The position numbers and the translations under genes were made by a program. From Macrostomum hystrix (Eukaryota > Animalia > Platyhelminthes), in assembly GCA_950097015.1 (NCBI GenBank), contig CATNEN010000001.1, forward strand, positions 3,906,001 to 3,970,000: a DNA stretch of 64,000 nucleotides, written 5' to 3'. Below the pieces are notes generated by a model. The model searched no databases, was not told where the DNA came from, and saw nothing but the letters and a program-made list of their open reading frames with translations. This document shows, piece after piece, positions 15,305 to 64,000 of the stretch; position 1 is the stretch's first letter; each line of letters begins with the position of its first letter.

Positions 15305-15305
<1 letters not shown>

Positions 15306-15341
<36 letters not shown>

Positions 15342-15350
15342 CAGATAGAT
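15306..15350. repeat. (GATA)n microsatellite
   Basis: Direct reading. Confidence 0.9.
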
Positions 15351-31952: not shown

Positions 31953-32413
31953 GTTGCAGTCTATTTAAAGTTGCAGTCTATTTAAAGTTGCAGTCTATTT
32001 AAAGTTGCAGTCCATTTAAAGTTGCAGTCTATTTTAAAAGTTGCAGTCTATTTAAAGTTGCAGTCCATTTAAAGTTGCAGTCTTTTTAAAGTTGCAGTCT
32101 ATTTAAAGTTGCAGTCTATTTAAAGTTGCAGTCTATTTAAAGTTGCAGTCTATTTAAAGTTGCAGTCTATTTAAAGTTGCAGTCTATTTAAAGTTGCAGT
32201 CTATTTAAAGTTGCAGTCTATTTAAAGTTGCAGTCTATTTAAAGTTGCAGTCTATTTAAAGTTGCAGTCTATTTAAAGTTGCAGTCTATTTAAAGTTGCA
32301 GTCTATTTAAAGTTGCAGTCTATTTAAAGTTGCAGTCTATTTAAAGTTGCAGTCGATTTAAAGTTGCAGTCTATTTAAAGTTGCAGTCGATTTAAAGTTG
32401 CAGTCTATTTAAA
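31953..32413. repeat. 17-bp minisatellite (gttgcagtctatttaaa)
   Basis: About 27 copies immediately 5' of the LINE ORF. Confidence 0.95.
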
Positions 32414-35400
32414 CGCCCTGGTGTTTGAATAGCGCCGCCGCCTCCTGGTGCCACTGTCTGCAGCTGTCTACCATGCCAGTGCTACCAGTGCGTACCAAGG
32501 CCTCAACGGAGAGCCGCGCTCCTGCTGCGGCTGCCAAGAGCGGCACACCATCCAAGCGGCGTGGCCAACGCAGCGAACGTCGGCGAAAAGAACGGCGCCG
32601 CGAGCGCAACCGTCGTGGCCGACTTCGCGGACGCGAACGACGAGCCGCAAGCCAAAATGCTATGCTGCCTGGTGGTGCGGATCCTCCGGGTGGCGCCGGG
32701 GACCAAGAGGCCCCACAACAACGGGCCCCAGCTGAAACAAAATGCGCGCAACTGCTCAGGGTTGCGACCTGGAATTGTCGAACTCTACGGGCGAGGTGGA
32801 GACAACATCTGCTAGCACAACTTGCAGACGATCTTAAATTAGACCTAATCATGCTACAGGAAATTTCAATTAGCACCGAGCAGGGGCTTCGCCAGGAGCA
32901 CCTCGGCGGCGGCTGGCTCCTACATTATACCTCAGCGGATCCAAGAGGCCGAGGAGGAGTCGGTGTTCTGATAAGTCCACGGCTGCAGCGCTGCACCCGA
33001 TGCGAGAGCCTATCACCGAGACTGCTGCGAGTTGACCTGCGCCTGCGCTCGCGAAATGTGCGCCTGTTCTGCGCCTATGCACCCACAGCTGCACACCCGA
33101 CGGAGCATCAGCAATTTATGGAGTTCCTGTCAGGGCAGCTGGAGGCGGTCGCTCAGCGCGATTCGGTGCTTGTGCTCGGAGACTTCAACGCTGTGATGCG
33201 GAAATCTGAGCGCGCCCGGTTCGTCACTCCACGCGAGAACAGCAACACCGACGCACTAGTTGACTTTGCAGGGCGACACGATCTAGTATCGGCAAACACT
33301 ATTTTCCAAAAGCCGCAACAGAGACTGGCTACTTTTGCAGGATGCAAACGGCCGCGCCAAAAAGCCGACGGTAAATTTGCTAAGAGGAGATTCGCTCAGC
33401 TGGACCACGTGCTGCTTCGCTGGCGAGAGCGGCGCCGCGTGACCAATTGCGACACGGTGGCTCCACTTGCTGTGCCGTCGGACCACAGCTGCTGTATTGT
33501 GACCTGCACCTGAAGGACCCCCTGTATCGACCACCGAGACGGCAACCGAAGCACTATTTCCGAGCCCTTCGCAACTCAACTGTGAAGGATCGTTTCTGTA
33601 AGGCTTTCACCGAGGCAATGGAAGCGAGGGCGGATTAGATAGCAGACTACGGAAGCATCAGTTCAGCCATTCATGCCGCCGCTGCCAAAACACTGCCGAT
33701 GGCGCAGGCAGCACCAAGTGGTAAGCCTGTGTGGCAGGATGACGAGTCACTGCGACAGGCCCGGCTGACAGTCGAGAGGCTGCGACGAAGAGGACAAGCC
33801 ACAGAGGACGCTGAGAAAGCCCTGGCGGAGACCTTCAAGTCGCGGCAGTGCGCCGCGGTGGAGGATGCTATCCGCAAAATCACCGACGCTGGTCCTGACA
33901 AATAGCCGCGTGCCGTTTGGTCGGCTGTCAACGAGCTGACGGGACGCAAGCGGCGCAACGCGCTAAACCTAGCGGGTGATACACCTGAAAAACGTCGAAA
34001 CGAGCTCAAGGACTTCTTCTCCGGCATCGTCAACGCGCCACCACCACCTCTGTGCGACATATCGCTTCCTGAGGAGGTCGTGTTGCCGGAAGAGAGCGCC
34101 TTCAATATCAGCCCAATCACCATTGACGAAGTAATACATCTAGCAAAGAAGACTCCAGGAGGCAAGGCCACGGGACCTGACGACGTACCAGTGGAGGCGC
34201 TGCGTCTCCCTCTAGTAGCACAGGAAGTCACGCGAGTGATGAACTGTGTGCTCGACGGGGGCGCCGCCCCACCCGAGTGGCGAACTGCGCACATTGTCGG
34301 AATCCCGAAGAAACCTGGCACTGTCAAGATAGACGAGCACCGCGGAATCTCACTGATGTCCTGCACCGCGAAACTGTACAACAGGGTACTGCTGACGCGG
34401 CTGCAGCCAGTGCTGGATCCTTTCCTCCGGCGAGAGCAGAATGGTTTCCGGCCGTGCAGGGGCACAGTGACTCAAATTCTCGCGTTGCACCGCATCCTTG
34501 AAGAGGCTCGTATCCACCAAACAACCGTCGTCTGCATCTTTGTAGATTTGCTGAAGGCGTTTGATTCGGTGTCGAGGCGAGTCATCGCAACCATCCTCCG
34601 CGCGTACCACGTGCCTGAGCAGCTGGTGACGGCTGTGATGGCTCTGTACCAGGAGACCAGGGCGGCAGTTGTGACTCCAGACGGCCTGTCTGACTTTTTC
34701 GACACGTCTTCTGGTGTGCTGCAGGGGGACACTCTGGCCCCCTTCTTGTTCGTCCTGGTCCTGGACTGGGTGCTGCGCGTCAGTCTTCCTGATGACTCTG
34801 ATGGCTTCCTGATCTGCCGCAGAACGAGCAGGCGACATCCTGAGAAGCGAGTATCCATACTGGCTTACGCAGACGACCTGGCGCTGTTGTCAAGTTCCGT
34901 TGAAGGAGCCCAACGCATGCTGGACAAGCTGACAGCCGCAGCAGCTGTGGTCGGGCTGACTGTGAACGCCCGAAAAACGATGGTGCTCACGACGCCGACG
35001 GACCTACCGGCTGAGATCCGCTGCCGTGACCCGAGCGGGCAGGTGGCGCTGCTACCTCGCTGCACGGAGTTTTTGTACCTAGGCGGCCTGGTTCCGAGCG
35101 TGCAGGGCGACATCGCACGGCGCAGAGCTCTGGCCTGGGGAGCCTTCCGCTCCTTGCGAACTGTGCTGCAGTGCCCCGCGCTTCCAAACCGGCTGAGGGG
35201 GCGGTTGTATCAGGCCGTGATTGAAACCGTGCTCTTGTACAACGCCCACACGTGGACCCTGACCAGCTCGCAGGAGCGGCAGTTGGACGCCGCACACGCA
35301 GCTCTCCTGCGCGCCACCTTCGGGATCCACTACTAGCCGAACACCGCCACCATTGTCACCAACGATGAATTGTACCGCCGAGCCCAGCTTCGTCGACCAA

Positions 35401-35590: not shown

Positions 35591-36013
35591 GACAATTCTG
35601 CGAAACGCTGCGCTTTTTAGTTTTAAGTTTCATTACTGTAAATACGTTTTCTATAAAAATATATGTAAAAAAATATATAAAAAGAGAAAATTTAAAATCG
35701 CGCCAAAAAGAACTATTTTGTTTTATTTTGTACCGTAAGAAAAATAATGCCGCATGTAAATATTTTGTTTTATTTTGTATCTTGTAAATAATACTATGTA
35801 AAAAGTCGCCATTAAAACAAAAGTTAATTTTTTACTGTATATATAGCCGCAATTTTGACTGGGAAAATATAAGTCGTTTAAGTCGTTTAAGTCGTTTGAG
35901 CTTGCTAAAGTTTACTAAAGTGTTCTGAAGTTGAAGTTTTCGAAGTGTTTAAGAAGAGTTTCTAAGTGTGTTTTAAATCAAAAGATTCAAGTGTTGCATT
36001 GTGTTATTCATTT

Positions 36014-36862
36014 GCATCTTTGCCAAAGGTTCATCAGCGAGTGGGGCTGCAGAGTCATAGAATCTCAGGCAGGAAAGAATTTGCTTAAAGCGATCTCTCG
36101 ACAGAGAGAACGACTGAGCTAGAAAGCCACAGTGAAACACGGAATCACCGGACCAGTAGTGGGCCAGCTCCGGCTTCTGGTCGATGCCCATGAGCAGTAT
36201 AATGCCAATAAGCTTGCGCATTTCATCAGTTGAGCAATCCTTCCAATTCAATATGATTTTGGGGACAGCATCCAATGTCTCGCATTCTTGAAAAATCTTC
36301 CAAGCCTTGTTGTCGGTCCATCTGCGAAGGTTCTCGAACAACTCGTCCGGCAAATACAACTTTAGGTAGGCCGACTCATTTCCATCGGCAGTTTCTGGTG
36401 GCTGCCAGTTGGGCCGAACTCCAGTGGTTCCCAGAAACTCGGGGACTGGAGATGGTCTGTTGTCAAGAGTTTCCTGAACGAGCTCCCAATCACCGACTGG
36501 GATTACAGGGACTTCATTAATCTCTTCGAAAAGCTCTTCGAAGTCGCTAGCAGATTCATCGTCGGTTACAATGGGTGAATCTAACGCAGAATCTATTTCA
36601 GAGTCAGAACTCATGATGCGTTTTTGCTGTCTTAGTCTGTTGTCGAGAAAATATCTTTAAAAATTAGGCTTGACAGCCTTAAAAAACAGAGGAACGAAGA
36701 AAATCTAGTTACTACGTGGCGAATCTGTTTGAAACATGCTTTCAGTCGTGAAGGGTGTGTATGTGAGTTAAAAATTTTCTACCAAAAAAATTCTATGGCA
36801 CGATTTCGGTCCAAGCCGTCAGGAACGGGTGTGTGTGTATAAAAGGGCAGTCAGGAAAAAGG
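36014..36862 (-). mobile_element. 3'-deleted piggyBac transposon
   Basis: ORF from 36614 with piggyBac N-terminal motifs (EMRKLIGIILLMGI, HYWS, LSRDRFKQILSCLRF, DEPLAK). The 5' end reads ttaa|cctttttcc at the LTR's own TTAA site. Confidence 0.88.
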
Positions 36863-36990
36863 TTAAGAGAGACTAGCAGTGAGAAATATACTCAGAACTA
36901 TACTCAGAACTATATTCAGGACTATACTCGGAAATATACTCAGAACCATACTCAGAATTATACTCAGAACCATACTCAGAATTATACTAA

Positions 36991-38669
36991 TGATGTGGAG
37001 TGTGCTGCGGGAATCGAGTGGGAGTGTGAGCCAGCATAATTTTTCAAATTTTTAAGTGTCTAATAATTGCGACCCACATAGCAGCTGGCCGCAAACACGA
37101 TCATTAATCTTAGGGCCGGGTTTGGGGCGGCGGTGAATTAAGTAGCCGTCGAATCCCTTCTCCCTGGATCTGTCTAGACCCCTGTAGGAATGACTGATCG
37201 CGGCCATAGCTTTTATTGTATGAGTAGTTTAGGTCATAATTCTCCTCCAAACCGCGATCAGATATAGGGGGTCACTCGGGCGTTATGAGTGATCATTAAT
37301 TCTTCATGTCCCCTCTTCTTTACAGTATTCGAGCCCAGCTCGACTTTATGACCTCCTTCCTTTTAGATACATGTAAATGTCACTGTAGGCAGGTCGGCGC
37401 CTGCGCTTCCCATTGTCCCGGCGGAGTAACAATCGCTGGCTGACTGCCGACGGCTGTTCGCGCAGGACATCTGTCGTTTCCCGCCGCCGGTTCATTGGGC
37501 AATTGGGGCGGCAATCGCCGCTTCAATTCCTCGATGACAGGCTGGCGCGAATGTGGGTTATTTTGATGGATGTCGGGGTTGGCGTGCTGCAAGGCCTATT
37601 TAAGCAAGCGCGCTGCGCTGCTCCCTCTAGGACCTCTTTTCTCCCACCGGCTCTTCCCCTTTCTCCCTGCCGGTTTACCTTTGCCGGGCCGGAATCCCAC
37701 CGGACCCAGGACTTGTCCCCCAGATCCACTTAGGGCTTAGACCCTAGAGCTTAGAGCTCCACGGCTAGCGCAGGCCCATTGCCTGTCCCCATTCCCCCTG
37801 AGCGCGAGCCACCTCTTTAGGTGGGCCGTTAAATTGAGCCTTGAGCTCCAAGCGTGTTGGCCCCTGCCAACTCGCAGCACTTCCCTCCCCTGTCTCTGCT
37901 GTCTTACCCCACCCCCTTCCCGAGATCAACGGGATTGCAGCACGCGGCCGAAGCGACTCCAGATAAGTAACCCGCGCAGCGGTTTTTTTGCAATTATTGC
38001 TCCTAAGGGACTTTCTATTAATTAGGCGGCTATTAGTGGGCACGGGCTTAGGATTTGAGGCTTAATATACGGACCATTCATTCGCCAATTATTAAAACAT
38101 TAGGCCAAATTTAATAACAATTTAAATCTTTCCGCCATGCTGTTATTTCCTCTTTATTTTCTCATTAGACAGCCCTCTACCATGAGTGGCTAATCTATTA
38201 GGGGAATGGGCTCTGGCACAGCCGAGCTGAAAGCTGCGGCAGGAAGGCAATTGTGAGCGCGCATGAGAGTAATATGGAGCTAGGGATGTGCAAGTAAGAT
38301 GCGGAGTGTAGCACGTGTTTCTTTCTGTCCAGGGGTGGGGAATTCCCTGGCGGGTTTTCCCCATTTCCTGGCGGATCTGGGAGTGCGTGTCGAGCTCCCC
38401 TGCCAATTGAGTTTCCCTTCTGTTTCCCCCTCTCGCTTCTACCGCCAGGGAAGTGGGGGGTGATGACCTTTTAACCTTACGCTTGCATAATCACTCAGCC
38501 AGTGTTCAGCCTAATCTCTCCTGCCTCTGATTTCCTCATCTCGCACAGATTCGGATTTGTTAGTGACCTAATGTGTAAGCTGCAATCTAATGTAAGGAAT
38601 GTGCCTGATGTTTTCATGAGTAGGATTCCGGCTATGGATTCTCATTCGAGTTCTTAGTACCACCTTTCT
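36991..38669. mobile_element. 1.7-kb insertion, possibly a solo LTR of another family
   Basis: Interrupts LTR copy C precisely, is flanked by an actaa duplication and starts TG. Weak terminal inversion and no credible ORF. Confidence 0.55.
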
Positions 38670-38942
38670 ACTAAGAGTATTGCAAAAAGGAAACTGCTAA
38701 ACTCTCGGGGACGCCTAATTGACTGGAAACGTGTACAGTTGCCTAATTACCGCTCGTGCAAATACATACGCTACCATTTGAGAAGCTAAAACGGCCCATT
38801 TAAGGACCGCCAGTCAAATATCTTTTAAATTGAGTCAACAGCAGTGAAATTGTTAAAATAGCCCCGTTACAACTTTGGTGTCTGAAGTGGGATTTTCTTA
38901 TAAAAGCCTGTTATTAAATATTGTAAATTTAGCCCTAGTACA

Positions 38943-39785: not shown

Positions 39786-41875
39786 AAGACCAATAACGAT
39801 TTCTTAAAGTCAACCAAGGCTTGTCAGCGGAAGCGCCAGGGTCCCGGTTACTTGTTCTCGACTTCAATGTGGTTAGTCTCCAGCTAATTAAAATGACTTA
39901 ATTATTTCAAATGTCTGTACTCCTTAGACTTTAGCTATATTCCGCTCCGACGCTCGCGCTTGCGCCACAAACCGTCTTTCAAGTTGTATTTAAATTTGCG
40001 CCAGGTTTCGAGGAAAGATAAAGTAAACAAAAAATAAAGTGACATCGTCACACTTAGGTCGGCTATTCCGTTCAGTTTTTCCAGTGAAACGAACAATCCT
40101 GGTTTCTCAATTTTTGTTTCTTTTGAGCAGGCCATGATCACTGAAATGGAAAAATACATGCGGATCGGAACCGAAATACGGGTATGTAGTATTTTGAGGT
40201 TTGCCGCTTTCACGCGAGCTCGATTCTAATGTATCATTATGTTTTTAATAGTAATTTTACATGATAAAGTTGGCGCTATTAATAGTTTCGCAATTTTCGA
40301 GTATTCGCAATACATTTGTTTTAAATTGTAAAAAATAATTTTTAAAACAGAATTACACTGCGAGCATCGATGAGCGGTACTTAACGTTTGTCTGAGCGAC
40401 AGCGTGTGTGGCGAGTGTATTGTCCGAAAGTGAACTGATTTCTCTCCCGTTAATTTGAAATGCCGTACTGTTGAGAGAAAGTGTTACAGGTAGAAAATTA
40501 TCGTAAACCGATAAAGAATGCCGTTTCAACAGTGCCCTTAAAGACCTTAATAACTGCAAAAGTAATTTATTTTGTGCTAAGCTTAACTTCCTGAAGTTAT
40601 GCTGAAAAAATGTATAATATTTTAGTATTTTATTTTAACATTGTATTCATGTTAGATTTAAAGATAAATAATGTATTATACTGGTCTAGCTAGGTAAGAC
40701 TAGGTAAATTTTACATGTAAGACTATGTTTCACTTTCAAGTACAATTTATTATATTATTTATAGTTTATGAAGCTTGATATGGATCTTGAACACATGCTC
40801 CAAAATATTTGGATATGACAAGAATGGATTATCATATTCCTTCATTTGTATTAGCATAAGTTATTTAGCAATTAAAGTAGGGCCTAAAAGTTTAAAATGC
40901 TTCCTTAGTGAAATCTAGCAAAACCCAGCAACATACACAATACTTGTCTTGCAAGGCTTTTTAGGTTGCCATTTTTACATTGAAGGCAAGAAGGCAAACA
41001 CTGCCTTTTCATTCAATATTGTGTACCAGGGCTTACTTCTTTTTACTTATTTCTACTGAATGCCACCAAAGTTGTACAGGTGGAAATTAATTATCTCACC
41101 GTTGTTATCAAAGTTGTACTGGGCTATTTTAATATTTCTACTACAGTTGACTCACATTAACTGGTGGACCTTAAAAGGGCCGTTTTAACTTCTCAAATGG
41201 TAGCGTTTCTATATGCACGAGCGGTAATTAGGCAACTGTATACTTTTCCAGCCGATTAGGCGTCCCCGAGATTAGAGTTTAGCAGTTCCCTTCGATAATA
41301 TTCTTAGTATAACTTCTGAGTATAATTCTAATTATACTTCTCACTGCTATCTTCCTTTAAAATGAATAACACAATGCAAAGCTGTCGGAAATTTATTTTT
41401 TTAAACACACTTAAAACTATATTTACAAACACCTCTTGAAAAACTACTTCAACTTTTAAACTCTTTAAACACTCTCCTGAAACACTTTAATACTCTTGTA
41501 CAAAGGCTTTCAGCTTTTAACTCAACTCAACAATTTCAACTTCAACTCTAAAAACACACACTTCGAAACACTCTTACAAACTCACTGAAACACTTTGAAC
41601 ACTTTCGAACTCTCTCGAACTCACACACAGGTTATTTTTCCAGACCAAAAGTGCGGCTATTTATAGTGAGAAAAATTAACTTTTGTTTAAACGGGAGCAT
41701 TTTACATAATATTATTTATAATATGCAATTTAAAACAAAATTATTTACATACAGTATTACTTTTGATACGGTACAAAGATAAACAAATTATTATTTTTTT
41801 GGCGCATTTTTAATTTTATTTATTTTTATAATTTTTATAATAGAATAACGTATATACAAGAGGCTAACTATTACA

Positions 41876-41889
41876 ACTTTCCCTCTCTA
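41876..41889 (-). other. Polypurine tract
   Basis: agagagggaaagt immediately before the 3' LTR TG. Confidence 0.85.
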
Positions 41890-41937: not shown

Positions 41938-42606
41938 CTAAAAAGTACAGTTGTTCGGCAAGTCTTTAAAGTAGGGGAAATTTACTTGATTGAACAACCA
42001 GCGAAACTCGATATTCACCAATTGTCGTTGAAAAGTCCTCGAGTCGGCTTGCCGCAGGCGCTGTAGTTCTCGTCCGATTGCGGCGTAGAGGATTACAACC
42101 TCCGGCTGTGCCATCAGCTCTTTTAGCGCCCTTACCGCCGCCCATACTTGTGCTCGTTGGGGCAAGGCCTCGTCCAGCCTTAGGTAGGCTACTCTTGTTA
42201 AGTAGCGCAGAATGGCGAAGCGGAGCCGTTCGGCATGCTCCCCGTACTTCACCATCAATTCTTGATATGTCAGTTCGGTTGATGGCGGTGGCGGAGGCGG
42301 CGGCAGTGCTTCGGCAGCGGGTTGACCATGCTTAACCGCCGGCGCAATGACGATTTGGCACGTGCTTCTGGTACCCGGCGTATTCTTAGCGTGCCTCTCG
42401 ACTGGTGTTACCGCCTGGGCCGCCATTACGTCTGCTCTCCTCTTGTGGGGGTCCAGCTGTCGCACCTTAGTTGGCGAAGAAGTTCGCGGCCGCTTTCCTG
42501 CTACCGGTTGAGGCCTCGTTGGTTGTCGCTCTGGTGCTGATATTTCGGCGTCAAGATCCACTTCAGGTTCTAGAGATCGCAGTAATTCGTCCAGCTCGTT
42601 GTCCAT
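41938..42606 (-). CDS. Gypsy accessory ORF3, 222 aa, unknown function (not env-like)
   Basis: Open frame from MDNELDELL. A homolog at 60940-61410 differs mostly by synonymous changes. Confidence 0.85.
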   Translation of the reverse strand: MDNELDELLRSLEPEVDLDAEISAPERQPTRPQPVAGKRPRTSSPTKVRQLDPHKRRADVMAAQAVTPVERHAKNTPGTRSTCQIVIAPAVKHGQPAAEALPPPPPPPSTELTYQELMVKYGEHAERLRFAILRYLTRVAYLRLDEALPQRAQVWAAVRALKELMAQPEVVILYAAIGRELQRLRQADSRTFQRQLVNIEFRWLFNQVNFPYFKDLPNNCTF

Positions 42607-42654
42607 TTCTCTGCGCAAATTAGCTTTCCTTCTCAAAATTGTTGCTCCTAGATG

Positions 42655-42752
42655 CTGACCCTCCCTTCATTATATAGGCTTTGGGGGTTGGCTAAAAACG
42701 AAATAATCATGGATACTGTTGTCAAGTCCTAACTCGCTTGCTATTGGCTGGC
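42655..42752 (-). promoter_or_regulatory. Putative internal Pol II promoter for ORF3
   Basis: The minus strand has gccagccaatagc (CCAAT) and cctatataatg (TATA) upstream of the ATG. Both are conserved at 61465-61557. Confidence 0.6.
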
Positions 42753-43012: not shown

Positions 43013-46000
43013 CTACTGTCCATTATTCATTCTCTCGTAGTTAATCGCATTGTTACGTGGTCTAAGATTATATCTTGCTTCAGGAACTTGGTCCTCTTCA
43101 TACTGCTCAGCTTCTTGTTCGATTGGTTCATCTTCTTCAGCTTCTTCTTGAATTTCTTCCTCAATTTCTTCTTCTATTACACTCTCAATTTCTTCTTCTT
43201 CAGATTCTTCAATGTCTTCAGGCTCTCTTATTCTCCACTGAAATCTTCTTTCATCTTCTTCTTCTTCTTCTTTTTCTTCTTCTTCTATCACAATTTCTTC
43301 TGTTCTCTTCTTCTCCTTGACTTTTGTCTTCTGCTTACTAATCTTCCCTCTCTTAATTTTTGGCTCTGTCTTTTTTTCTTGTTGTTCTTCTGGAATTTCT
43401 CTCTCAGAGTTCGGGACTGGTGTGAGGTTGTTTCGGTGAACCAACATTTTCTCACCTGTTCTCGTTCCTTCAATTTCCTTCTGCACTCGGAAAACTGTGT
43501 CACTCATCTGCGCTAATACTCGGTATGCTGCGCGCTTTTTGCGATGGAATTTGTTGCTTTCATCGACATGCAATTGTGGGTTGTTGATTAGAGCTAAGCA
43601 TCCTACTGGGATAATCTTAGGCTGTTTACTCTCAGCAGAGATTTCTTCTCGTTTGTCTCGAATTTTCTCTAACTTCTTCTGAACTATTCCTCTGACTTCT
43701 TCGAGTCGCTTCGCATGATCAGCTACATAGCTCGGATAATCACTGTACTGCTTCGGCTTCTTAATAATGTTATCAATGGGCAAATCTGCTTCTCGGCCAA
43801 ACAGTAAGTAATGTGGAGTGAATCCAGTAGTCTGATTCACACTTGTTCTGACAGCTACTAGTGCGGCTGGGATTAGCAAATCCCAATCAGAGTGATCTTT
43901 CTCCACTAGACAGGTAATGATTGACTTGATTTGTCTATTAAATCTCTCGACCAGTCCGTTACTTTGTGCATGATAAGGCGTTGTGCAGGTATGTTTGATT
44001 CCATACAGAGCACAAAATGCCTGAAACTGCCTACTCACGAATGTCTTACCATTATCGGTATGTATCCACTGACACTGGCCGTATTCACTAAAAATTCTCT
44101 CTTGGATCAGCTTAATGACGGTGTCGGACTTTTGATTCCGAATTGGGAAAGCGAACGGGAACTTAGTGGTACTATCCACAACAGTGAGTACATAACGGTA
44201 TCCTCGCTTACTTTCTTTGGAGATTGGGCCGATAATGTCAATGTGCAGCCGGTGAAATGGTTCGCAGATTGGGAACATCTGTACCGGCGCTTGCACTTTA
44301 CTGCCGACCTTACTCTCTAGACACGGAATACACTCCGAAATATATCGCTCAATAGAGGTCACCAATCCTGGTTTCCAAAACCTCTCACGAACACGCTGAA
44401 TGGTTTTATCACGCCCTAGATGACCTGCGAGAGGACTGTCGTGCAATTCTTTTAGCACATCCTTCTCAATAGCCTCTGGCAAAACCACTTTCCTTTTTCC
44501 GTCTTCTTCAATCACCAGCATTTCATCTTCGATTCTCATGTGTTCATAAAACTTCGCCATTTTCTTCAATTCTTTACTCGCGTTCTCAGGTACTTTTGGC
44601 TCTCGGACATCTTGTTCCTTCCAATCTATCAGTGTCCTTATAGAGGGATCTTCATGTTGAGCTGTTGTCAACTGTTCCTTCTTTAACGGGACATTGAGAT
44701 AGTCGGTTAGAAGTTTCCGACACACGGCCTCATTATGTAATTCTTCCTCAAAATAGTCTCTAGCATCTTCATATTCTTCATAATCATCGTCTTCTTCGTC
44801 TGAGGACTCAATTTCTCTAGTCAGGGAAGTTTGACAGCTCTGATGCACGAGGCTTGGGCTGCATTGAGACTGTTGTTCTGACATTTCTTCTCTTGAATTA
44901 ACTGACTGGTTTCGATTCACTGTAATGGCAGGAGGCTCAGCTTCTACCTGTGGTTCTTCCTTCTGGACCTTTTCTTCGTTGGACTTTTCCGGTGGTCTTC
45001 TAGATAGGCTGTCTGCATTTCCATGCTTTGCTCCACTTCTATGCTCAATATCATATTGGAATTCGCTCAATCTCTCAATCCATCTTCCTAAGATTCCTTG
45101 CGCCTCGGTTTGTCTCAGCAACCATAAGATTGCCTTATGATCTGTGCGAGCCAGAAACCGTTTGCCTATTAGGTAGAACCTGAAATGCTTCATCCCGTCT
45201 ACTAGTGCAAGCAATTCCTTCCTTGTAATCGGGTATCTCTTTTCAGATTCCTTCATCGCTCTGCTAAAATATGCTATGGGCCTTTCAACTCCATCAGATT
45301 GAATCTGACCTAGGCAGGCGCCAATTCTTCCATCGCTAGCATCTGTATCAAGCACCATTCTTACATTTTCATCATCCGTGAACTCAGGATATGCCAGTAC
45401 TTCAGTGGAAGTCATCTTCCTTTTAAGTAGCTCAAAAGCTTCATCATGTTTTTTAGTCCACTTTTCCTTAAAGTTCTGAATTCCTTTCTTGGTTAACTGG
45501 AATAGCGGATTCGCTGCTTCGGCATAGTTCCGAACAAATCTACAATAGTAGTTACATAGTCCGAGAAAACTTCTTAGCTCCTTGACATCCTGTGGTGTTG
45601 GCCAGGTCTGGATTGCCTCTATTTTGGCAGGATCGGTACTTATTCCTTCTCTTCCAACAACATGACCTAGGTATTTCAATTCCTTTTGAAACAGATTACA
45701 CTTCTTAGGTCTCAGCTTCAGTCCAGCAGTTGATAGTCTTTGAAATACTTCTCGTAGGTGGCTCATATGATCTTCAAATTCCTTTGAATAAGTGACAATG
45801 TCATCAATGTAGGACATAGCGTACTTGTGCTGGATACCCATTAACACTAGGTTCATCAGTCTCTGGAATGTTCCTGGGGCATTTGATAAGCCCTGAGCCA
45901 TCACTTGATATTCAAACTGTCCTCGAGTCAAGGTGGAGAAGGCTGTTATGAACTTATGTTCCTCCTTGATGGGTACCTGCCAGTAACCGGAGTTCAAGTC

Positions 46001-47539
46001 TAGGCTGCTGAAGTAGTTGCTTCCAGTCAGATGCGAGAAAGTCTCTTGTATATTCGGCAATGGGTATGGATAGTAGTTGACACGAGAATTCAACACTCGG
46101 AAGTCACTAACAATCCTGATAGTTCCATCTTTCTTTGGCACTATCACCAATGGTGTCGAGTATGTACTATAACAAGGTCTTATTAAATTCTTTACAAGCA
46201 TGTCATCAAGCTGTTCGTCTACTTGCTTCTGTAGATGTGGTGGAATTCTACGGGTTGGAATCCTGACCGGAGTAGCATCTTTTAATGAGATCTCATGGGT
46301 TACCAGGTGGGTCAGACCCATGTCTTGATTAGTCTGAGAGAAGGCTGATCTATTCTCCTTTACTAACTCAACTACTCTTGCTCTTTGCTCTGCTGTTAGC
46401 TCTTCACTGATGTTAATCTCTTTGATCCATTCATCATCCTCCTCAGCTTCATTGCTTTTTACTGTCTTGATTCCTCCATCAGTCTTTGCATTAGGTAATT
46501 TTTCCTCTTTCTGACTATTCAGGTAAACCAGATCTTTTACTTTTAATGGTTTTGCGACTCCAATGAAAGTTGACTTGGATAAGCGAACATCGCTACTTTG
46601 CTGATTGATTACTTCCACTACACCTTCTCCGTTCGTCATTGTTACAAGAGTCGGACTTATTTCCAGACTACCTTCTTTTGTGATTATACTTCCTCCGGAT
46701 CGCTCAATTACCATAGGTGTGCCATGATTTGCTTCATTATTTCTGGCCAATTTTACAGGTATTCTCAATGCACTATTAGCTGGTATAATAATTCTTCCTT
46801 GGCAATATACTCGGCAGACTCTGACTGGTAGCTTAGTGAATCGAATAGGAAGGCAGATTCCATCCTTCATCACTAACATTCCTTTTGTGAAGCTGACATT
46901 CTCGCAATGATTCATAAAAAACTCCATGCCTAGGATATCATCACAGTCGTGACTGCACAGCAAAAACTCTGTCTCGATTTCAACATCTCCAAATCTGACC
47001 TTTGTCGTAATTTCACCTTCAATTCTGACTTTCGATCCATCAAATGTGGTTACTCTTCTATCTGACGGCTCAATCTCATGACTTTTGAACATCTTTTTCC
47101 ATGAACATTTACTAAGAAAATTATGACCGGCTCCAGTATCTAACAAGAAATCAACTTTCTGTTTCCGAATCTCTCCACTCACAACAGCTTCACGTCCTTT
47201 CTTGATCGGTTCTTCATATTCACTGGTTTCTGGGGTAATTTCGGCATGTACCTCTGTACTTTTAATCTTCTCATTCAAGTTTCCACGCGTAGGTGCATAA
47301 TCGCATTTAGGTGCAAGCGGCTTATTTACAGTGGGTGCATTAGGTGCATAATAATTCGCATGACTATTTACACTCTTCTTTGGCAAATAAAACTTATTAT
47401 ACTCGTCACTTCGCTTATGTACAAACTTCTTCTGATTAACCTTATACGCATTATTTACAAATTCAGAGGCCTGAGCTTCGTACTTTCTATTTCTTGAGGG
47501 ACGTGGCCTCGCAGTTCGACCCTCGGCAATCAGTTTCCC
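43013..47539 (-). CDS. pol: Gypsy Pol (protease, RT, RNase H, integrase, acidic tail)
   Basis: Motifs FLLDTGA, YIDDI, LDTDAS, HHCC, HIDIIGP/HTDNG/NGLVERFN. The frame stays open upstream to the slippery site. Confidence 0.96.
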   Translation of the reverse strand, partial: GKLIAEGRTARPRPSRNRKYEAQASEFVNNAYKVNQKKFVHKRSDEYNKFYLPKKSVNSHANYYAPNAPTVNKPLAPKCDYAPTRGNLNEKIKSTEVHAEITPETSEYEEPIKKGREAVVSGEIRKQKVDFLLDTGAGHNFLSKCSWKKMFKSHEIEPSDRRVTTFDGSKVRIEGEITTKVRFGDVEIETEFLLCSHDCDDILGMEFFMNHCENVSFTKGMLVMKDGICLPIRFTKLPVRVCRVYCQGRIIIPANSALRIPVKLARNNEANHGTPMVIERSGGSIITKEGSLEISPTLVTMTNGEGVVEVINQQSSDVRLSKSTFIGVAKPLKVKDLVYLNSQKEEKLPNAKTDGGIKTVKSNEAEEDDEWIKEINISEELTAEQRARVVELVKENRSAFSQTNQDMGLTHLVTHEISLKDATPVRIPTRRIPPHLQKQVDEQLDDMLVKNLIRPCYSTYSTPLVIVPKKDGTIRIVSDFRVLNSRVNYYPYPLPNIQETFSHLTGSNYFSSLDLNSGYWQVPIKEEHKFITAFSTLTRGQFEYQVMAQGLSNAPGTFQRLMNLVLMGIQHKYAMSYIDDIVTYSKEFEDHMSHLREVFQRLSTAGLKLRPKKCNLFQKELKYLGHVVGREGISTDPAKIEAIQTWPTPQDVKELRSFLGLCNYYCRFVRNYAEAANPLFQLTKKGIQNFKEKWTKKHDEAFELLKRKMTSTEVLAYPEFTDDENVRMVLDTDASDGRIGACLGQIQSDGVERPIAYFSRAMKESEKRYPITRKELLALVDGMKHFRFYLIGKRFLARTDHKAILWLLRQTEAQGILGRWIERLSEFQYDIEHRSGAKHGNADSLSRRPPEKSNEEKVQKEEPQVEAEPPAITVNRNQSVNSREEMSEQQSQCSPSLVHQSCQTSLTREIESSDEEDDDYEEYEDARDYFEEELHNEAVCRKLLTDYLNVPLKKEQLTTAQHEDPSIRTLIDWKEQDVREPKVPENASKELKKMAKFYEHMRIEDEMLVIEEDGKRKVVLPEAIEKDVLKELHDSPLAGHLGRDKTIQRVRERFWKPGLVTSIERYISECIPCLESKVGSKVQAPVQMFPICEPFHRLHIDIIGPISKESKRGYRYVLTVVDSTTKFPFAFPIRNQKSDTVIKLIQERIFSEYGQCQWIHTDNGKTFVSRQFQAFCALYGIKHTCTTPYHAQSNGLVERFNRQIKSIITCLVEKDHSDWDLLIPAALVAVRTSVNQTTGFTPHYLLFGREADLPIDNIIKKPKQYSDYPSYVADHAKRLEEVRGIVQKKLEKIRDKREEISAESKQPKIIPVGCLALINNPQLHVDESNKFHRKKRAAYRVLAQMSDTVFRVQKEIEGTRTGEKMLVHRNNLTPVPNSEREIPEEQQEKKTEPKIKRGKISKQKTKVKEKKRTEEIVIEEEEKEEEEEDERRFQWRIREPEDIEESEEEEIESVIEEEIEEEIQEEAEEDEPIEQEAEQYEEDQVPEARYNLRPRNNAINYERMNNGQ
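47495..47539 (-). promoter_or_regulatory. -1 ribosomal frameshift signal
   Basis: G GGA AAC directly before the gag TGA; pol is in the -1 frame; downstream gaggg...ccctc stem. Confidence 0.85.
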
Positions 47540-48525
47540 TGCGCCCGATAGCGCGGTTGTCTGGACTCTTGACAGAATCTGGCCATATGACCTGGCTTTC
47601 CACAGTTGAAACAGGTTCTGGGTTGCTGCTGTTGCTGCATCATTGGCTGTGGCCTGTTGTTATTACGAAATCCTGCCTGCTGTTGCTGGCTAGGCGGGGG
47701 TTGGGCTCTGACAGCCTGGGCGTACGTCTGACGCTGTGGATTCTGTAGAAACTGCTGCTGCTGTTGCATTTGCTGTTGCTGATAGCCATCTTTCTTCTCT
47801 GTTAGTTCTTGTAGCATTTTCCGCTGCTGAGCCAGCTCCATCATCTGTTTCCTCACCAGTTCTTCCAACCTTTCCCGAGCAAGCTTCTCTTGCTGGTTAT
47901 CCTCATCTTCCTTGGCCATTCTTACACCAGAATTATTTCTGTGTGACATACACCAGGCAGCCTCTATGCGCCTGAGAATTCTCTTCGCATCCTGCAGATT
48001 CGCTGGCTGGGCGAAAATCAGCTTTTCTCTGGTCTCTGTCGGAACCTTGGCTCCCCTAATAAACTGCTCTACCAGCTCTTCTTCTCGCTGTTCTATCGTC
48101 ATATTAGGAAATGCCCTTGCGGCTAATTCAATCAAGCAATCGGAAAATGCTTCAGCAGATTCATTTCTTCCTTGCATCCTTCCTCGAAATTCCTCTCGAC
48201 ATTCCGCAGAACTGCCAGTTCTTCCAAATCGCTCAATAAGTCTGTCTTTGAACTCTTGATATTCTAGATCTTCAGGAAGGTTCATTCGTTGAACTGCAGC
48301 GAAGGCCGTTGATAAGTCCAGATTGGCAAGCACTTCCTGCTTCCTGTTTTCTTCCGGAAAATCATCTGCATCACATCGGAGATCAAATGCCAGCAGCCAC
48401 ATCCTGATGTCTTGTCCTGGCTTAAATTTCTCAATTTTCACATGGCGCGTTGGCCCGATTTCGAGTCTGTTTCTCAGTTCCTCGGCTAACATAGCCATTA
48501 AATCTTGAGCTTGTGCCTGATTCAT
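47530..48525 (-). CDS. gag: Gypsy Gag, 331 aa
   Basis: Retrotransposon capsid-like region (QGRNESAEAF) and CCHC knuckle CFNCGKPGHMARFC. Confidence 0.95.
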   Translation of the reverse strand: MNQAQAQDLMAMLAEELRNRLEIGPTRHVKIEKFKPGQDIRMWLLAFDLRCDADDFPEENRKQEVLANLDLSTAFAAVQRMNLPEDLEYQEFKDRLIERFGRTGSSAECREEFRGRMQGRNESAEAFSDCLIELAARAFPNMTIEQREEELVEQFIRGAKVPTETREKLIFAQPANLQDAKRILRRIEAAWCMSHRNNSGVRMAKEDEDNQQEKLARERLEELVRKQMMELAQQRKMLQELTEKKDGYQQQQMQQQQQFLQNPQRQTYAQAVRAQPPPSQQQQAGFRNNNRPQPMMQQQQQPRTCFNCGKPGHMARFCQESRQPRYRAQGN

Positions 48526-48556
48526 CTTGCTTTAATCGCTGCTTCTCTAATCCTTT

Positions 48557-48568
48557 CCGCTGCCACCA
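48557..48568 (-). other. Primer-binding site, tRNA-Leu
   Basis: TGGTGGCAGCGG, 4 nt after the 5' LTR, complementary to the tRNA-Leu 3' end ...CCGCTGCCACCA. Confidence 0.88.
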
Positions 48569-50049
48569 AAGTTGTACCAGGGCTTACTTCTTTTTACTTA
48601 TTTCTACTGAATGCCACCAAAGTTGTACAGGTGGAAATTAATTATCTCACCGTTGTTATCAAAGTTGTACTGGGCTATTTTAATATTTCTACTACAGTTG
48701 ACTCACATTAACTGGTGGACCTTAAAAGGGCCGTTTTAACTTCTCAAATGGTAGCGTTTCTATATGCACGAGCGGTAATTAGGCAACTGTATACTTTTCC
48801 AGCCGATTAGGCGTCCCCGAGATTAGAGTTTAGCAGTTCCCTTCGATAATATTCTTAGTATAACTTCTGAGTATAATTCTAATTATACTTCTCACTGCTA
48901 TCTTCCTTTAAAATGAATAACACAATGCAAAGCTGTCGGAAATTTATTTTTTTAAACACACTTAAAACTATATTTACAAACACCTCTTGAAAAACTACTT
49001 CAACTTTTAAACTCTTTAAACACTCTCCTGAAACACTTTAATACTCTTGTACAAAGGCTTTCAGCTTTTAACTCAACTCAACAATTTTAACTTCAACTCT
49101 AAAAACACACACTTCGAAACACTCTTACAAACTCACTGAAACACTTTGAACACTTTCGAACTCTCTCGAACTCACACACAGGTTATTTTTCCAGACCAAA
49201 AGTGCGGCTATTTATAGTGAGAAAAATTAACTTTTGTTTAAACGGGAGCATTTTACATAATATTATTTATAATATGCGATTTAAAACAAAATTATTTACA
49301 TACAGTATTACTTTTGATACGGTACAAGGATAAACAAATTATTATTTTTTTGGCGCATTTTTAATTTTATTTATTTTTATAATTTTTATAATAGAATAAC
49401 GTATATACAAGAGGCTAACTATTACAATTGTCAATATTGCCCATATTGGTGCCAAATTTGATTGTATGTAGATCTATTATTGTACTAGCAACTTGCTTGG
49501 CTAATAATTGGTATAAGTAGTCAAGATGCTAACAATTAAACCTTCAAAAGCAAGATTCAGCTAGTTGTCTTGTTATTCACCTGTGAAAAAGATGTAGTCA
49601 ATTGTATGCATTTGAAATATAAAGTGCAACTTCCAGAATCTCAGCTGGTCATGCAACTTAGTTTGGAATAAAAAAGGTGACACATTGCAGCAGATAAGTT
49701 TGATAGCAATAAATACTAGGGCTGGCAATTGGGGAATTATTTTTGGGGAGTTGGGGATTGGGGAATCATAAAAGTTGAGAAACTTGGGGAGTCGGGGATT
49801 GGGGAGCTTTCAGAAGTCGGGGAATCGGGGAGTTGGGGACCTAAAAAAGTTGAGGAGTCGGGGATTTGTGAGTATAGGTAAGAAAATAATAACCAAGAGA
49901 ACTTTGCCATTTTGCAATGGAAGTGGAAGAAATTTTAAACACAAGCAGGAAGATTCAAGCCATTCATTCCGTAAATGGCTTAAAAAGAGCAATTTGCTGA
50001 TTACTCAAGTTCTTAAAATACTTTTGCCTTGAATGCAATTACCTGCACA

Positions 50050-60294: not shown

Positions 60295-63200
60295 CTTCTC
60301 TTCTGTAATATTCTTAGTATAATTTCTGAGTATAATTCTGATTATATCTCTCACTGCTATTTCTTAAAATGAATAACACAATGCACACAATTACCTTCGG
60401 AAATTTGCTTTTTTTAACACACTTAAAAGTTCTATTTATAAACACACTAAAAACTCCTTCAATTTCAACTTCAATTCTTTAAACACTTCAAATTATCTCA
60501 ACCTTTAAACTCACTCTTTAAACTCTCTTGAAAACACTTCAAACTTATGAAAACCTTGAAATCTCTTAAAACCTGACAAACTTTACAAAACTTACTTCAA
60601 CACACACTGACAACGTACAACTGACAACTTTATTTTTCTCTCTGAAAACTCGCCGCTATTTATACACAGGGAATTTAGCGTTTGTTTTAATTCGCATATT
60701 TTACATAATATTATTAACATGATGAAAAGTAAAACAAAATTATTTTCATACAACATTACTTTTAATACGGTACAAAGATTAACAAAAGATATTTTTGGCG
60801 CGTTTTTGATTTTTATTTATTTTTTTCGATTTTATAATAAGAGCAAGAACGTATATACATAATGAAATGGCTAAAACACTGTCACAACTTCCCTCTCTAA
60901 AAGAAAAATTTGAATAAAACAAAATAAGTGAAATTTTTTCTAAAAGTTGCAATTTTGCGGCAAGTCCTTGAAATACGGGAAGTTCACTTGGTTAAAAAGC
61001 CAGCGAAATTCTATAATCACTAACCGATGCTGAAAAGATCTGCTATCGGTTTGCCGCAGGCGCTGAAGTTCTCCTCCTATTGCTGAGTAGATGGTCATTA
61101 CTTGCTGCTGTGGCATCAGTTCCTTGAGTGCTCGAACCGCCGCCCACACTTGCGCTCGCTGTGGCAGGGCCTCATCCAATCTTAAGTAGGCGATCCTTGT
61201 GAGGTAGCGGAGTATGGCGAAACGGAGCCGTTCCGCGTGCTCTCCGTTGTGCTGGTCCATTTGCCGTACCTTGATGGGTGAGGAGGTTCTTGGTCGTTTT
61301 CCTGTCACTGGCTGAGGTCTCGTCGGCTGTCGCTCAGGTGCTGCTATCTCGGCGTCGAGGTCTACTTCCGGCTCCAGTGATCGTAACAGTTCGTCGAGTT
61401 CGTTATCCATTTCTCTTTTCTGCGCAAATTAGCTTTTCACAATGGATGCTCTTAGGTGTTGACCCTCCCTTCATTATATAGGCTTTGGGGGTTGGACAAA
61501 AGCGAAATTATCATGGAAACGGTTGTTCAGTTCTATCTCGATTGCTATTGGCTGGCGTGGGAGGTGGGGTTTAGGCAGACTCACGGCTGTGTGGCGTGGG
61601 CCGGGAGAAAGGTGGCTGAGCATAGTTGAGCATAGCAAAATTTTCTTTTCTTCATAAAATTTTTAATATTCAACTTTAAGTTTCGAGTAAAACGTTTTTG
61701 GAAAGCTGGCATCAAGACGAATACATTGGTTTTTTAATTTTTCAAATATCTTATGCGGTTCTCATTCTGTTGACTGGCGGCACTAAAAAGGGCCGTTTAA
61801 CTATTTTCTACTGTCCATTATGCATTCTCTCGTAGTTAATCGCATTATTACGTGGTCTAAGATTATATCTTGCTTCAGGAACTTGATCCTCTTCGTACTG
61901 CTCAGCTTCTTGTTCGTTTGGTTCATCTTCTTCAGCTTCCTCTTGAATATCTTCCTCAATTTCTTCTTCCATTACACTTTCGATTTCTTCTTCTTCAAAT
62001 TCTTCAATATCTTCAGGTGCTCTTATTCTCCATTGTAATATTCTTTCATCTTCCTCTTCTTTTTCTTCTTCTTCTTCTATCACAATTTCTTCTGTTCTTT
62101 TCTTGTCCTTGACTTTTGTCTTCTGCTTATCAATCTTCCCTCTCTTAATTTTTTGGCTCTGTATTTTCTTCTTAATTCTTCGGATGTCTTCTTTTTTCCA
62201 AACTATCAGGTCCTTATAGAGGGATCTTCATGTTGAGCTATTGTCAACTGTTTCTTCTTTAACGGGACATTGAGATAGTCGGTCAGAAATTTCCGATACA
62301 TGGCCTAATCTCTGGCACATTTTCCTCACTTTTCTCTCGAGAGCTCAACTTCTTTTCACACTTATCAGTCAGGGAAGTCTGGCAGCTCTAATGCACAAGG
62401 CTGAGGCCGCATTAAGACTACTGTTTCTGATATTTTTTTCTCTTCGAACGACTTACTGACTTCACTTCTTTCTCCTGAAACATTAACTTTTGATCTCCTT
62501 TCTTTTGAAATAATCAGCTGGCATCGAGTCGGATTAGTTACAGAAGTCTGACATCTCCTTTCGTTGTTTATCCTAAATTTTACTTTGCTTGTTATTTATG
62601 TGAGTAGGCATAATCGTTTATCTTTCTGCGGTTGCGTGTTTTTAGCATAATAATTTGCATTTTAACTTGTTTATATTTTTATTGCTTTTGTTTCTTTTCT
62701 TTATAGCATGTTTACACAGTTTATATACACAAAGCATTTCTATACACTATTTACAAATTCAGCTTCATCCTTCACAGTTCCTGTCGGACACCTTCATTTA
62801 TTCTCAGAGCGTTTCAGGATGACTCTGCACACATGGTAACCTGGTCTTTTGTCCTCTTGTTCTTTGCTGATTCTGCTTTTTATTTCTGTTGATGTTCCGG
62901 GTGTACCACATTGGTAGCACCTGTTGAACATGTGGAAATTGTCCTTCGTTATGGTCTCATGATTCCTTTTTCCTCTTCCAGCTGATCTATTCTCAGTTGT
63001 TTGTTTTCCAAACAATGAGGGATGAGCTGGCTGCTGGTTCATCAGCACTGCCATAATCAACATTATAATCGACATCTTAACTGCTTTTCACTCTGTTTTA
63101 ATCGCTGCTTCTCTAATCCTTTCCGCTGCCACCAAAGTTGTACCAGGGCTTTACTTAACAACTGGCTTTTATAAGAAAATCCCACCGCTGTTATCAAAGT

Positions 63201-64000
63201 TGTTGCAGGGCAATATTATTAAATTTAACTTTAAATTTTAAATTTAAATTAAAATTTAAATTTAAATTTAAATTTAAATTAAATTTATTCAATCGCTGAC
63301 ACGCTGACACCGAAGTTGTTACAGGTGGAAATTAACTATCCCACCGCTGTTATCAAAGTTGTGGTAGGCGTGCTTTCTTCTTTTTACTTAAATTCTACTG
63401 AATGCCACCAAGGTTGTACTGGGGCTATTTTAATAATTTCACTGCTGTTAACTCAATTTAAAAGATATTTTTAAATGGCGGTCCTTAAATGGGCCGTTTT
63501 AGCTTCTCAAATGGTAGCGTATGTATTCGCACGAGCGGTAACTAGGCAACTGTACACGTTTCCAGTCAATTAGGCGTCCCCGAGATTAGAGTTTAGCAGT
63601 TTCTCTTCTGTAATATTCTTAGTATAATTTCTGAGTATAATTCTGATTAGATCTCTCACTGCTATTTCTTCTTAAAATGAATAACACAATGCACACAATT
63701 ACCTTCGGAAATTAGCTTTTTTAACACACTTAAAAGTTCTATTTATAAACACACTAAAACTCCTTCAATTTCAACTTCAATTCTTTAAACACTTCAAATT
63801 ATCTCAACCTTTAAACTCACTCTTTAAACTCTCTTGAAAACACTTCAAACTTATGAAAACCTTGAAATCTCTTAAAACCTGACAAACTTTACAAAACTTA
63901 CTTCAACACACACTGACAACGTACAACTGACAGCTTTATTTTTCTCTCTGAAAACTCGCCGCTATTTATACACAGGGAATTTAGCGTTTGTTTTAATTCG
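60295..64000 (-). mobile_element. Internally deleted, non-autonomous Gypsy (copy B)
   Basis: Truncated 3' LTR 60295-60886, PPT, ORF3, pol tail 61808-62160 and degraded gag/pol pieces. PBS at 63123-63134; the 5' LTR runs from 63139 past the window end. Confidence 0.9.
60940..61410 (-). CDS. ORF3 homolog, 156 aa
   Basis: Intact frame with an in-frame loss of 66 central residues relative to copy A. Confidence 0.82.
   Translation of the reverse strand: MDNELDELLRSLEPEVDLDAEIAAPERQPTRPQPVTGKRPRTSSPIKVRQMDQHNGEHAERLRFAILRYLTRIAYLRLDEALPQRAQVWAAVRALKELMPQQQVMTIYSAIGGELQRLRQTDSRSFQHRLVIIEFRWLFNQVNFPYFKDLPQNCNF

What the first reader, a model, noticed from the sequence alone, without database searches (positions are those of the whole stretch)
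63123..63430. Shuffled array of tRNA-Leu PBS / LTR-end cassettes inside U5
Seen, on the sense strand: U5 is built of units of the form [LTR-end-like ..ACA | ACTT + PBS-like sequence + spacer]. Copy B has 4 internal units (63177-63420), A has 2 (48610-48670 and 41059-41119) and C has 1 (38868-38895). Spacers are shared but reordered: cagtagaa..aagtaaaaagaag is second in A and first in B; aatttccacctgt is first in A and second in B; ttttcttataaaagcc is fourth in B and the only one in C. Known tRNA-Leu 3' ends (from memory) give complements TGGTGGCAGCGGTGGGATT and TGGTGTCAGAAGTGGGATT. B has tgAtAAcagcggtgggatt and C has tggtgtcTgaagtgggatt, i.e. two isoacceptors. These match further into the tRNA than the functional 12-nt PBS does, but most are damaged. 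Inference: since priming position defines the U5 end, the units could be alternative priming/att sites, a record of primer capture, a bipartite PBS, or decoys for 3'-tRNA fragments that silence LTR elements via the PBS.
Basis: partly seen in the sequence, partly recalled or inferred. Interest (0 to 1): 0.85.

Follow-up and report, generated by a model that had tools for sequence, protein, structure and literature searches.

The report
Stacked old primer sites in LTRs
The end repeats of a jumping gene, likely from a flatworm, carry a shuffled stack of worn copies of the element's own 'end plus primer site' module, likely left by slips during reverse copying rather than kept for a job, and similar stacks occur in four other unrelated sequence families.

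Summary
Seven such sites occur against none in 200 shuffles. Contigs of four runs show further orders. A metagenome scan found the same kind of stack in 7 of 23 hits, four unrelated families; 0 of 12 prokaryote hits. Module breakpoints lie within 0-5 nt of the end of the 18-nt tRNA match, and inner modules keep tRNA letters that the working PBS lacks. Likely cause: plus-strand strong-stop DNA slips back into U5; priming at the last PBS then copies the older module into both LTRs; template switching shuffles them; inner modules decay. A decoy or bipartite role is weak: in the youngest element all inner sites are poor tRNA partners. Ten paper searches found no description, but this scan noted the same kind of array before on other DNA (e1-9523320). 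New variant of a known kind; moderate interest.

The parts
63116..63134 (-). Element B working PBS (12 nt match to tRNA-Leu(AAG) end, mismatch, then GGAT)
   Evidence: strongest tRNA partner in B, -29.1 kcal/mol
63135..63138 (-). 4-nt ACTT linker between LTR end and PBS
63139..63200 (-). B module u4: linker + Leu-AAG copy (3 G>A changes at its 5' end) + spacer ending in the true LTR end
63201..63316 (-). B module u3: linker + scrambled PBS copy + spacer swollen by an AT-rich palindromic expansion (about 63219-63287)
   Evidence: a contig of run X3 skips 106 nt here
63317..63359 (-). B module u2: linker + Leu-AAG copy (same 3 G>A changes) + spacer s2
63360..63414 (-). B module u1: linker (ACCT) + PBS copy with 8 matching 5' letters + spacer s1
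63415..63455 (-).
   Evidence: contigs of X3 and X4 join its 5' part to an intact 3' half (joint 63192-63470)
63139..64000 (-). Element B 5' LTR (runs past the window end)
   Evidence: 98% identical over 402 nt to the 3' LTR
60296..60886 (-). Element B 3' LTR, broken off before the module array; purine tract just upstream at 60887-60900
48550..48572 (-). Element A working PBS and linker, identical to B's
48573..48705 (-). Element A 5' LTR module array: u0, u2-type (5 G>A changes), u1
48573..49426 (-). Element A 5' LTR, 854 nt, TG...CA
41022..41154 (-). Element A 3' LTR module array, identical to the 5' one
41022..41875 (-). Element A 3' LTR; 3 differences from the 5' LTR; 4-bp target duplication CAAT
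47530..48531 (-). gag frame, 333 aa, CCHC zinc knuckle
43013..47659 (-). pol frame, 1548 aa, protease-RT-RNase H-integrase
38831..38942 (+). LTR C end: u0, then linker + Leu-CAA copy (17 of 18) + spacer s4, ending at an LTR end with no PBS after it

Best explanation
The array is a stack of diverged copies of the element's own LTR-end/linker/PBS junction, likely made by slips of reverse transcriptase at the plus-strand transfer step and likely kept as neutral relics. Steps: (1, inferred) plus-strand strong-stop DNA, which ends in up to 18 letters copied from the primer tRNA or just beyond the PBS, re-anneals a few dozen bases back in U5 and recopies the LTR end, linker and PBS; (2, shown for A, C, L126, L133 by position) when the most downstream PBS primes, the older module becomes part of the LTR and is copied into both ends; (3, inferred) priming at an upstream site instead leaves the extra modules in the leader, as in L130; (4, inferred) template switching between co-packaged RNAs at the shared linker and at the PBS 3' half shuffles, adds and removes modules; (5, shown) inner modules decay while the terminal end and working PBS stay constant.
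For: Breakpoints: in 13 of 13 inner modules measured in five families, only 0-5 letters after the PBS copy match the leader; two more variants stop after 8 and 10 PBS letters (read by hand). Inner B and C modules carry the tRNA letters at positions 13-14 that the working PBS lacks, and no contig of X1 or X3 is listed with a tRNA-perfect working PBS. This fits Ty3, where the tRNA-copied strong-stop strand is a displaced dead end and the PBS is not inherited from the tRNA (PMC5371799 section 2.2). L139 has a perfect Leu-CAA copy, then a copy of its U5 end, then a perfect Leu-AAG PBS. Spacers align to each other and to the LTR end. Arrays are identical in both LTRs of A. Recurrence: 7 of 23 metagenome hits extend to both 18-mers, 0 of 12 prokaryote hits; L130 lies before a gag frame; L133 has TG...CA ends and a 4-bp target duplication. 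Decay: mismatches 2,2,0,0 from 5' to 3' in L137, 4,0 in L131/L134, 5 in A.
Against: L137 modules carry 3 and L131/L134 modules 5 leader letters after the 18-mer, so those were not cut at the tRNA stop and may be copies of the genomic junction. The window's inner modules could predate the change in the working PBS, which would explain their tRNA letters without tRNA templating. u0, u2 and u4 share the same derived changes, so many modules are copies of an already damaged one. The scan pattern demanded the 3' half of the upstream PBS, which biases towards breakpoints at or after letter 18. The linker is unchanged in all but one window module, and B's u2/u4 have all three changes in the first 6 of 18 letters; both could reflect selection. 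The A58 stop itself is not absolute (PMC1785368). No intermediate was observed.
Confidence: 0.6

Rival explanations
1. Plain DNA-level tandem duplication (replication slippage or unequal exchange) of the genomic LTR/PBS junction at a time when the PBS was a perfect 18-mer; no tRNA templating; isoacceptor differences arose later by primer switching at the working PBS.
For: Leader letters in L137 and L131/L134 modules; near-identical 62-nt repeats in L133; shared derived changes among u0, u2, u4; the other four families have perfect or near-perfect terminal 18-mers.
Against: Breakpoints cluster within 5 nt of the PBS end in all five families; the conserved leader never appears in a window module, except a possible 8 letters in B u3; orders are shuffled between dispersed copies over only 8-25 shared letters.
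Confidence: 0.2
2. The inner modules are kept by selection as sinks for 3' tRNA fragments, as helpers that load tRNA, or as spare priming/att sites that let the element switch primer tRNA.
For: Inner B modules cannot pair the tRNA's CCA end yet keep 12 perfect letters (-24 to -25 kcal/mol), while the working PBS is mismatched just where the 5' part of an 18-nt fragment would pair; C's module is a good Leu-CAA site (-28.9); 3' tRNA fragments do act through the PBS in mouse (10.64898/2026.01.22.698655); the 18-nt fragment is listed among snail small RNAs (PMC7328434); recurrence in five families.
Against: In A all inner sites are weak (-5 to -14 kcal/mol); module number and order vary freely, down to copies with no linker-led module (joints 63192-63470 and 63156-63470); inner att ends are more diverged than terminal ones; the same preprint reports seed-independent repression, which weakens the seed argument.
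Confidence: 0.13
3. Bipartite PBS: the tRNA 3' end pairs at the working PBS and its T-arm side pairs at an inner module.
For: The working PBS lacks tRNA letters 13-14, which inner B modules keep; Ty1 and Ty3 use split sites (PMC5371799).
Against: Inner modules repeat the same 18 letters rather than a further tRNA segment; the gain would be about 6 pairs; A's modules have lost that stretch; four other families have a full terminal 18-mer and still carry stacks.
Confidence: 0.04

Closest known systems
Canonical U5-PBS junction and plus-strand strong-stop DNA of retroviruses and Ty3/Gypsy elements
   Same: Each module is this junction: ...CA, short linker, complement of the tRNA 3' 18 nt (PMC1785368 passages, PMC5371799 section 2.2).
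   Different: Normally one per element and outside the LTR; here up to five, inside both LTRs, shuffled, with two isoacceptors.
cqgypsy_1 of Culex quinquefasciatus (Osvaldo lineage; PMC3286476, section read whole)
   Same: tRNA-derived sequence at the LTR/PBS boundary with a 26-nt duplication of the LTR end.
   Different: Two whole tRNAs, one event, one element, read by the authors as a possible SINE-like insertion; no array or shuffling.
Engineered retroviral vectors with two PBSs (Voronin and Pathak 2004; title seen in a reference list only)
   Same: Two priming sites on one RNA; the title reports frequent dual initiation.
   Different: Laboratory constructs; here natural, heritable stacks.
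Ty1/Ty3 bipartite PBS (PMC5371799 passages)
   Same: More than one tRNA-complementary stretch in the RNA.
   Different: Those pair with different parts of one tRNA; here the same 18 letters are repeated.
Tandem arrays of TRIM/Cassandra elements (PMC7215508, search listing only; structure recalled)
   Same: Several PBSs in a row in one locus.
   Different: Those repeat whole LTR plus PBS plus purine tract; modules here lack U3 and any purine tract.
Earlier finding of this scan, e1-9523320 (AI note, unchecked)
   Same: LTR-end plus PBS modules inside both LTRs, read as former primer sites.
   Different: Non-coding element, two extra modules; no shuffling or second isoacceptor in the lines shown.

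Membership tests
Ty3/Gypsy (Metaviridae) LTR retrotransposon, element A | Paired LTRs with TG...CA ends and target-site duplication | tested here: met
   854 nt, 3 differences, 4-bp CAAT
Ty3/Gypsy (Metaviridae) LTR retrotransposon, element A | gag, then protease-RT-RNase H-integrase order | tested here: met
   Pfam
Ty3/Gypsy (Metaviridae) LTR retrotransposon, element A | PBS after the 5' LTR, purine tract before the 3' LTR | tested here: met
Mdg3/micropia clade | RT/integrase phylogeny with named members | not tested
   No named reference proteins among the 120 hits listed. Leu PBS, 4-bp duplication and two frames fit the Mdg3 rows of PMC3286476 Table 1; circumstantial only.
Primer-binding site (inner modules) | Complement of a tRNA 3' end directly after an LTR-end motif | tested here: met
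Primer-binding site (inner modules) | Pairing with the CCA end sufficient to prime | tested here: inconclusive
   Contiguous 5' match 0-8 letters inside against 12 at the working PBS; C module -28.9 kcal/mol; priming not testable
Primer-binding site (inner modules) | Match to the host's own tRNA-Leu genes | not testable with these tools
   No genome held; no tRNA gene in the window
Bipartite PBS (Ty1/Ty3 type) | Segments pair with different, non-overlapping parts of one tRNA | tested here: not met
   Modules repeat the same 18 letters as the terminal PBS
3' tRNA-fragment target or decoy site | Strong complementarity kept in young copies | tested here: not met
   A: -5.1, -11.3, -14.4 kcal/mol; kept only in B u2/u4 and C
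3' tRNA-fragment target or decoy site | Fragments or Argonaute bound at the site | not testable with these tools
   No small-RNA data served
Tandem-array TRIM | Each repeat holds a whole LTR, PBS and purine tract | tested here: not met
   Modules of 42-62 nt (one 116) hold only the LTR end, linker and PBS copy
CRISPR- or integron-like cassette array | Constant repeat with foreign, unique spacers | tested here: not met
   Spacers are versions of the element's own LTR end

The most novel reading that the evidence does not exclude
Gypsy LTR ends act as a tRNA-templated recording array: each new module is a captured plus-strand strong-stop end, so the stack logs which tRNAs primed past rounds, and it gives the element a route to change primer tRNA or LTR length by switching which PBS is used, with inner copies soaking up silencing tRNA fragments.
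Probability: 0.2. Interest if true: 0.72.

Novelty: new variant of a known kind. Interest (0 to 1): 0.48.

Why it matters
If the best reading holds, LTRs can grow at their 3' end by recycling a known dead-end product of reverse transcription. That gives a natural, countable test of whether Gypsy elements inherit PBS letters from the tRNA and how they change primer tRNA, and it warns that LTR-end and PBS calling can be off by whole modules. It recurs in at least five families, so it is not a quirk of one genome. If the modules prove functional, they would be a transposon counter-measure against tRNA-fragment silencing.

Tried and rejected
Whole genome: none held, so no full copy table and no host tRNA set. 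No RNA holder listed. Viral collection: two gapped patterns gave 125 loci, 0 with two 18-mers within 3 mismatches; exact 18-mer scans gave 5 loci, two of them Gypsy-like (L151, L153), neither with a Leu stack; 4 Pol relatives (L166-L169) show no Leu PBS or stack, so stacks are not universal. Deaminase-type editing as the cause of the G>A changes: flanking LTR shows G>A 5 of 35 and C>T 4 of 37, and with 10 G and 2 C in the 18-mer a hand tally of 13 G>A to 0 C>T has p about 0.09; not supported. RNA structure: A array folds no better than shuffles (z +1.0), B z -1.6 from its AT palindrome. L130 gag shows no pairwise similarity to A gag; 120 Pol relatives find no coding match in the seven array loci. 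Supplements of PMC12801592 do not hold the three motifs searched (5 files). Primary papers on dual priming, Ty1 PBS inheritance and Ty3 bipartite PBS were not held. Look-ups in earlier findings by sequence and place were empty.

Full report
Setting. The window is animal DNA rich in repeats. Element A is a Ty3/Gypsy retrotransposon on the minus strand with LTRs at 48573-49426 and 41022-41875 (3 differences in 854 nt, target duplication CAAT), a gag frame with a CCHC knuckle and a protease-RT-RNase H-integrase frame. Its RT region is 90% identical to a Macrostomum lignano protein and 63% to a second one, so the host is likely that flatworm or a close relative (inference). B is an internally deleted relative whose 5' LTR ends at 63139 and whose 3' LTR (60296-60886) has lost its end. 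C is an LTR on the plus strand, split by insertions, ending at 38942. No whole genome is held.

The observation. On the sense strand every LTR ends in modules of [linker ACTT, tRNA-Leu PBS copy, AT-rich spacer ending in ...ACA]. Orders: A = u0, u2-type, u1, PBS; B = u0, u1, u2, u3, u4, PBS; C = u0, Leu-CAA module, end. The two reference 18-mers are the first 18 letters of probes for tRNA-Leu(AAG) and tRNA-Leu(CAA) in PMC7997516 (one passage seen); the AAG-type 18-nt RNA is also listed among small RNAs of a snail (PMC7328434, one passage), so it is likely conserved in invertebrates, but the host's own tRNAs were not seen. Seven sites pass the linker-plus-18-mer test, against a maximum of 0 in 200 shuffles. 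The spacers align to each other and to the LTR end: the array is a diverged repeat of the LTR-end/PBS junction, not a set of foreign cassettes.

Other copies in the species. Contigs of runs X1-X4 (one study; X1 may be the window's own source) were laid on B (15 of 17 joints shown) and those of X1 and X3 on A. Read by hand, the joints show: the C form; the A form; a form with u1 alone; spacer s4 placed before a u2 module; a u1-type PBS copy with an intact 3' half followed by s4; modules cut after 8 or 10 PBS letters, one with the CA of the LTR end missing; and forms in which u0 runs straight into s4 with no linker-led module. So PBS copies and spacers recombine separately and module number runs from none to four. 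Over the working PBS, where summed depth is about 7,800 in X1 (not a copy number), the only listed change is a 1-nt deletion at depth 161; no tRNA-perfect version is listed, though the tool warns that a missing row is no proof.

Other organisms. One metagenome scan for a Leu-AAG PBS with an upstream PBS 3' half gave 23 loci. In 7 of 23 the 14 letters not asked for also match (0-4 mismatches; the other 16 have 8-13); the same pattern in prokaryote genomes gave 0 of 12. The seven form four families: L126/L133/L137 (one marine assembly), L130, L131/L134 and L139. L130 lies before a frame whose relatives carry retrotransposon gag and CCHC domains; L133 has TG...CA ends and a 4-bp target duplication; the others have no coding evidence. 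L126 and L133 end at an LTR end with no PBS, so perfect inner sites did not stop priming further downstream. L137 decays 2,2,0,0 from 5' to 3'; L130 has decayed modules after its best sites; L139 has Leu-CAA then Leu-AAG, both 18 of 18. In the viral collection, neither of two Gypsy-like loci with a Leu PBS and none of four Pol relatives shows a Leu stack.

Mechanism. In 13 of 13 inner modules measured (B u3, the u0 modules, C, L126 and L133 were left out, lacking a clear 18-mer or a known leader), 0-5 letters after the PBS copy match the leader. One breakpoint is therefore tied to the end of the PBS, where plus-strand strong-stop DNA ends (PMC1785368, passages, which also reports that the A58 stop is not absolute). 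In Ty3 the tRNA-copied strong-stop strand is displaced, accumulates, and does not pass its letters to the PBS (review PMC5371799, passages and section 2.2). That would explain why the working PBS here stays mismatched at letters 13-14 while inner B and C modules carry the tRNA letters. The likely route is a slip of this end back into U5, recopying of the junction, then priming at the last PBS, which carries the older module into both LTRs (identical arrays in A). Against pure tRNA templating: 3 and 5 leader letters in L137 and L131/L134, shared derived changes in u0, u2 and u4, the possibility that the modules predate the PBS change, and the bias of my pattern towards breakpoints at or after letter 18. 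Some modules are thus likely copies of genomic junctions or of older modules.

Function. The working PBS is the best tRNA partner in A and B (-29.1 kcal/mol; perfect -39.9). Inner sites give -5.1, -11.3, -14.4 in A, -9.9 to -24.9 in B, and -28.9 for C with Leu-CAA. Terminal LTR ends differ at 0-1 of 11 letters, inner ones at 2-5. The youngest element with open frames thus has the weakest inner sites. This speaks against a kept decoy or bipartite role. In favour remain B's modules, which cannot pair the CCA end but keep 12 perfect letters, and mouse evidence that 3' tRNA fragments act through the PBS (10.64898/2026.01.22.698655, passages; its supplements not seen). The G>A changes do not require a deaminase, and the region has no notable fold.

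What is in print. Ten searches found no description of PBS-module stacks in LTRs; one search was swamped by unrelated uses of 'PBS'. The M. lignano LTR survey (PMC12801592: first sixth of the text, term search of the whole text, term search of 5 supplements, supplement 1 whole) does not mention PBS or tRNA in its main text. The nearest case is Culex cqgypsy_1 (PMC3286476, passages and one section). PMC4580426, PMC13570524 and PMC12371157 (passages) had nothing on arrays; Voronin and Pathak 2004 was seen as a title only. This scan noted the same kind of array before in another genome (e1-9523320; unchecked, found after my reading was set down).

Verdict. Real, recurrent and apparently undescribed anatomy built from known parts. 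Most likely a by-product of reverse transcription that logs old priming junctions (0.6); plain duplication 0.2; selected function 0.13; bipartite site 0.04. New variant of a known kind, interest 0.48.

Noticed in passing
window 41876-41879, 48569-48572, 60887-60890, 63135-63138: Both outer ends carry a matching 4-nt extension: AAGT between purine tract and TGT, ACTT between ACA and PBS. The cDNA may have 4 extra base pairs per end, more than the usual 2 (usual value recalled).
   Followed up: partly
L133, oriented 2228-2582 on the minus strand: A TG...CA element with a 4-bp target duplication made almost wholly of five modules; its left end is an inverted copy of the module spacer.
   Followed up: partly
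L130:147-260: Decayed modules lie downstream of the best PBS copies, in the leader before gag, the mirror image of the window's case.
   Followed up: partly
L151:5901-6018: Gypsy element with a perfect Leu-CAA PBS and a second junction-like motif about 95 nt upstream that does not match Leu; tRNA type not tested.
   Followed up: no
window 63317-63355 (-): Spacer s2 folds back on the 3' half of its own PBS copy (7-bp stem); may be a snap-back product or chance.
   Followed up: no
window 63219-63287: AT-rich palindromic expansion inside module u3, skipped by a contig of run X3.
   Followed up: partly
window 35628-38942: LTR C is split by insertions, one with a DDE_Tnp_1_7 transposase fragment at 35973-36656.
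   Followed up: no
window 60887-63134: Element B is internally deleted (2.2 kb, only scraps of pol, no match to A's gag) but shares A's PBS and 15 nt of leader exactly; likely non-autonomous.
   Followed up: partly
window 32413-35336: LINE-like element (endonuclease and RT frames) preceded by 51/68-nt tandem repeats at 31952-32413.
   Followed up: no
window 7700-17900: Dense cluster of minisatellites with units of 16, 20-22, 24 and 30 nt.
   Followed up: no
window 41938-42666 (-): 242-codon open frame between pol and the 3' LTR of A with no Pfam match.
   Followed up: no
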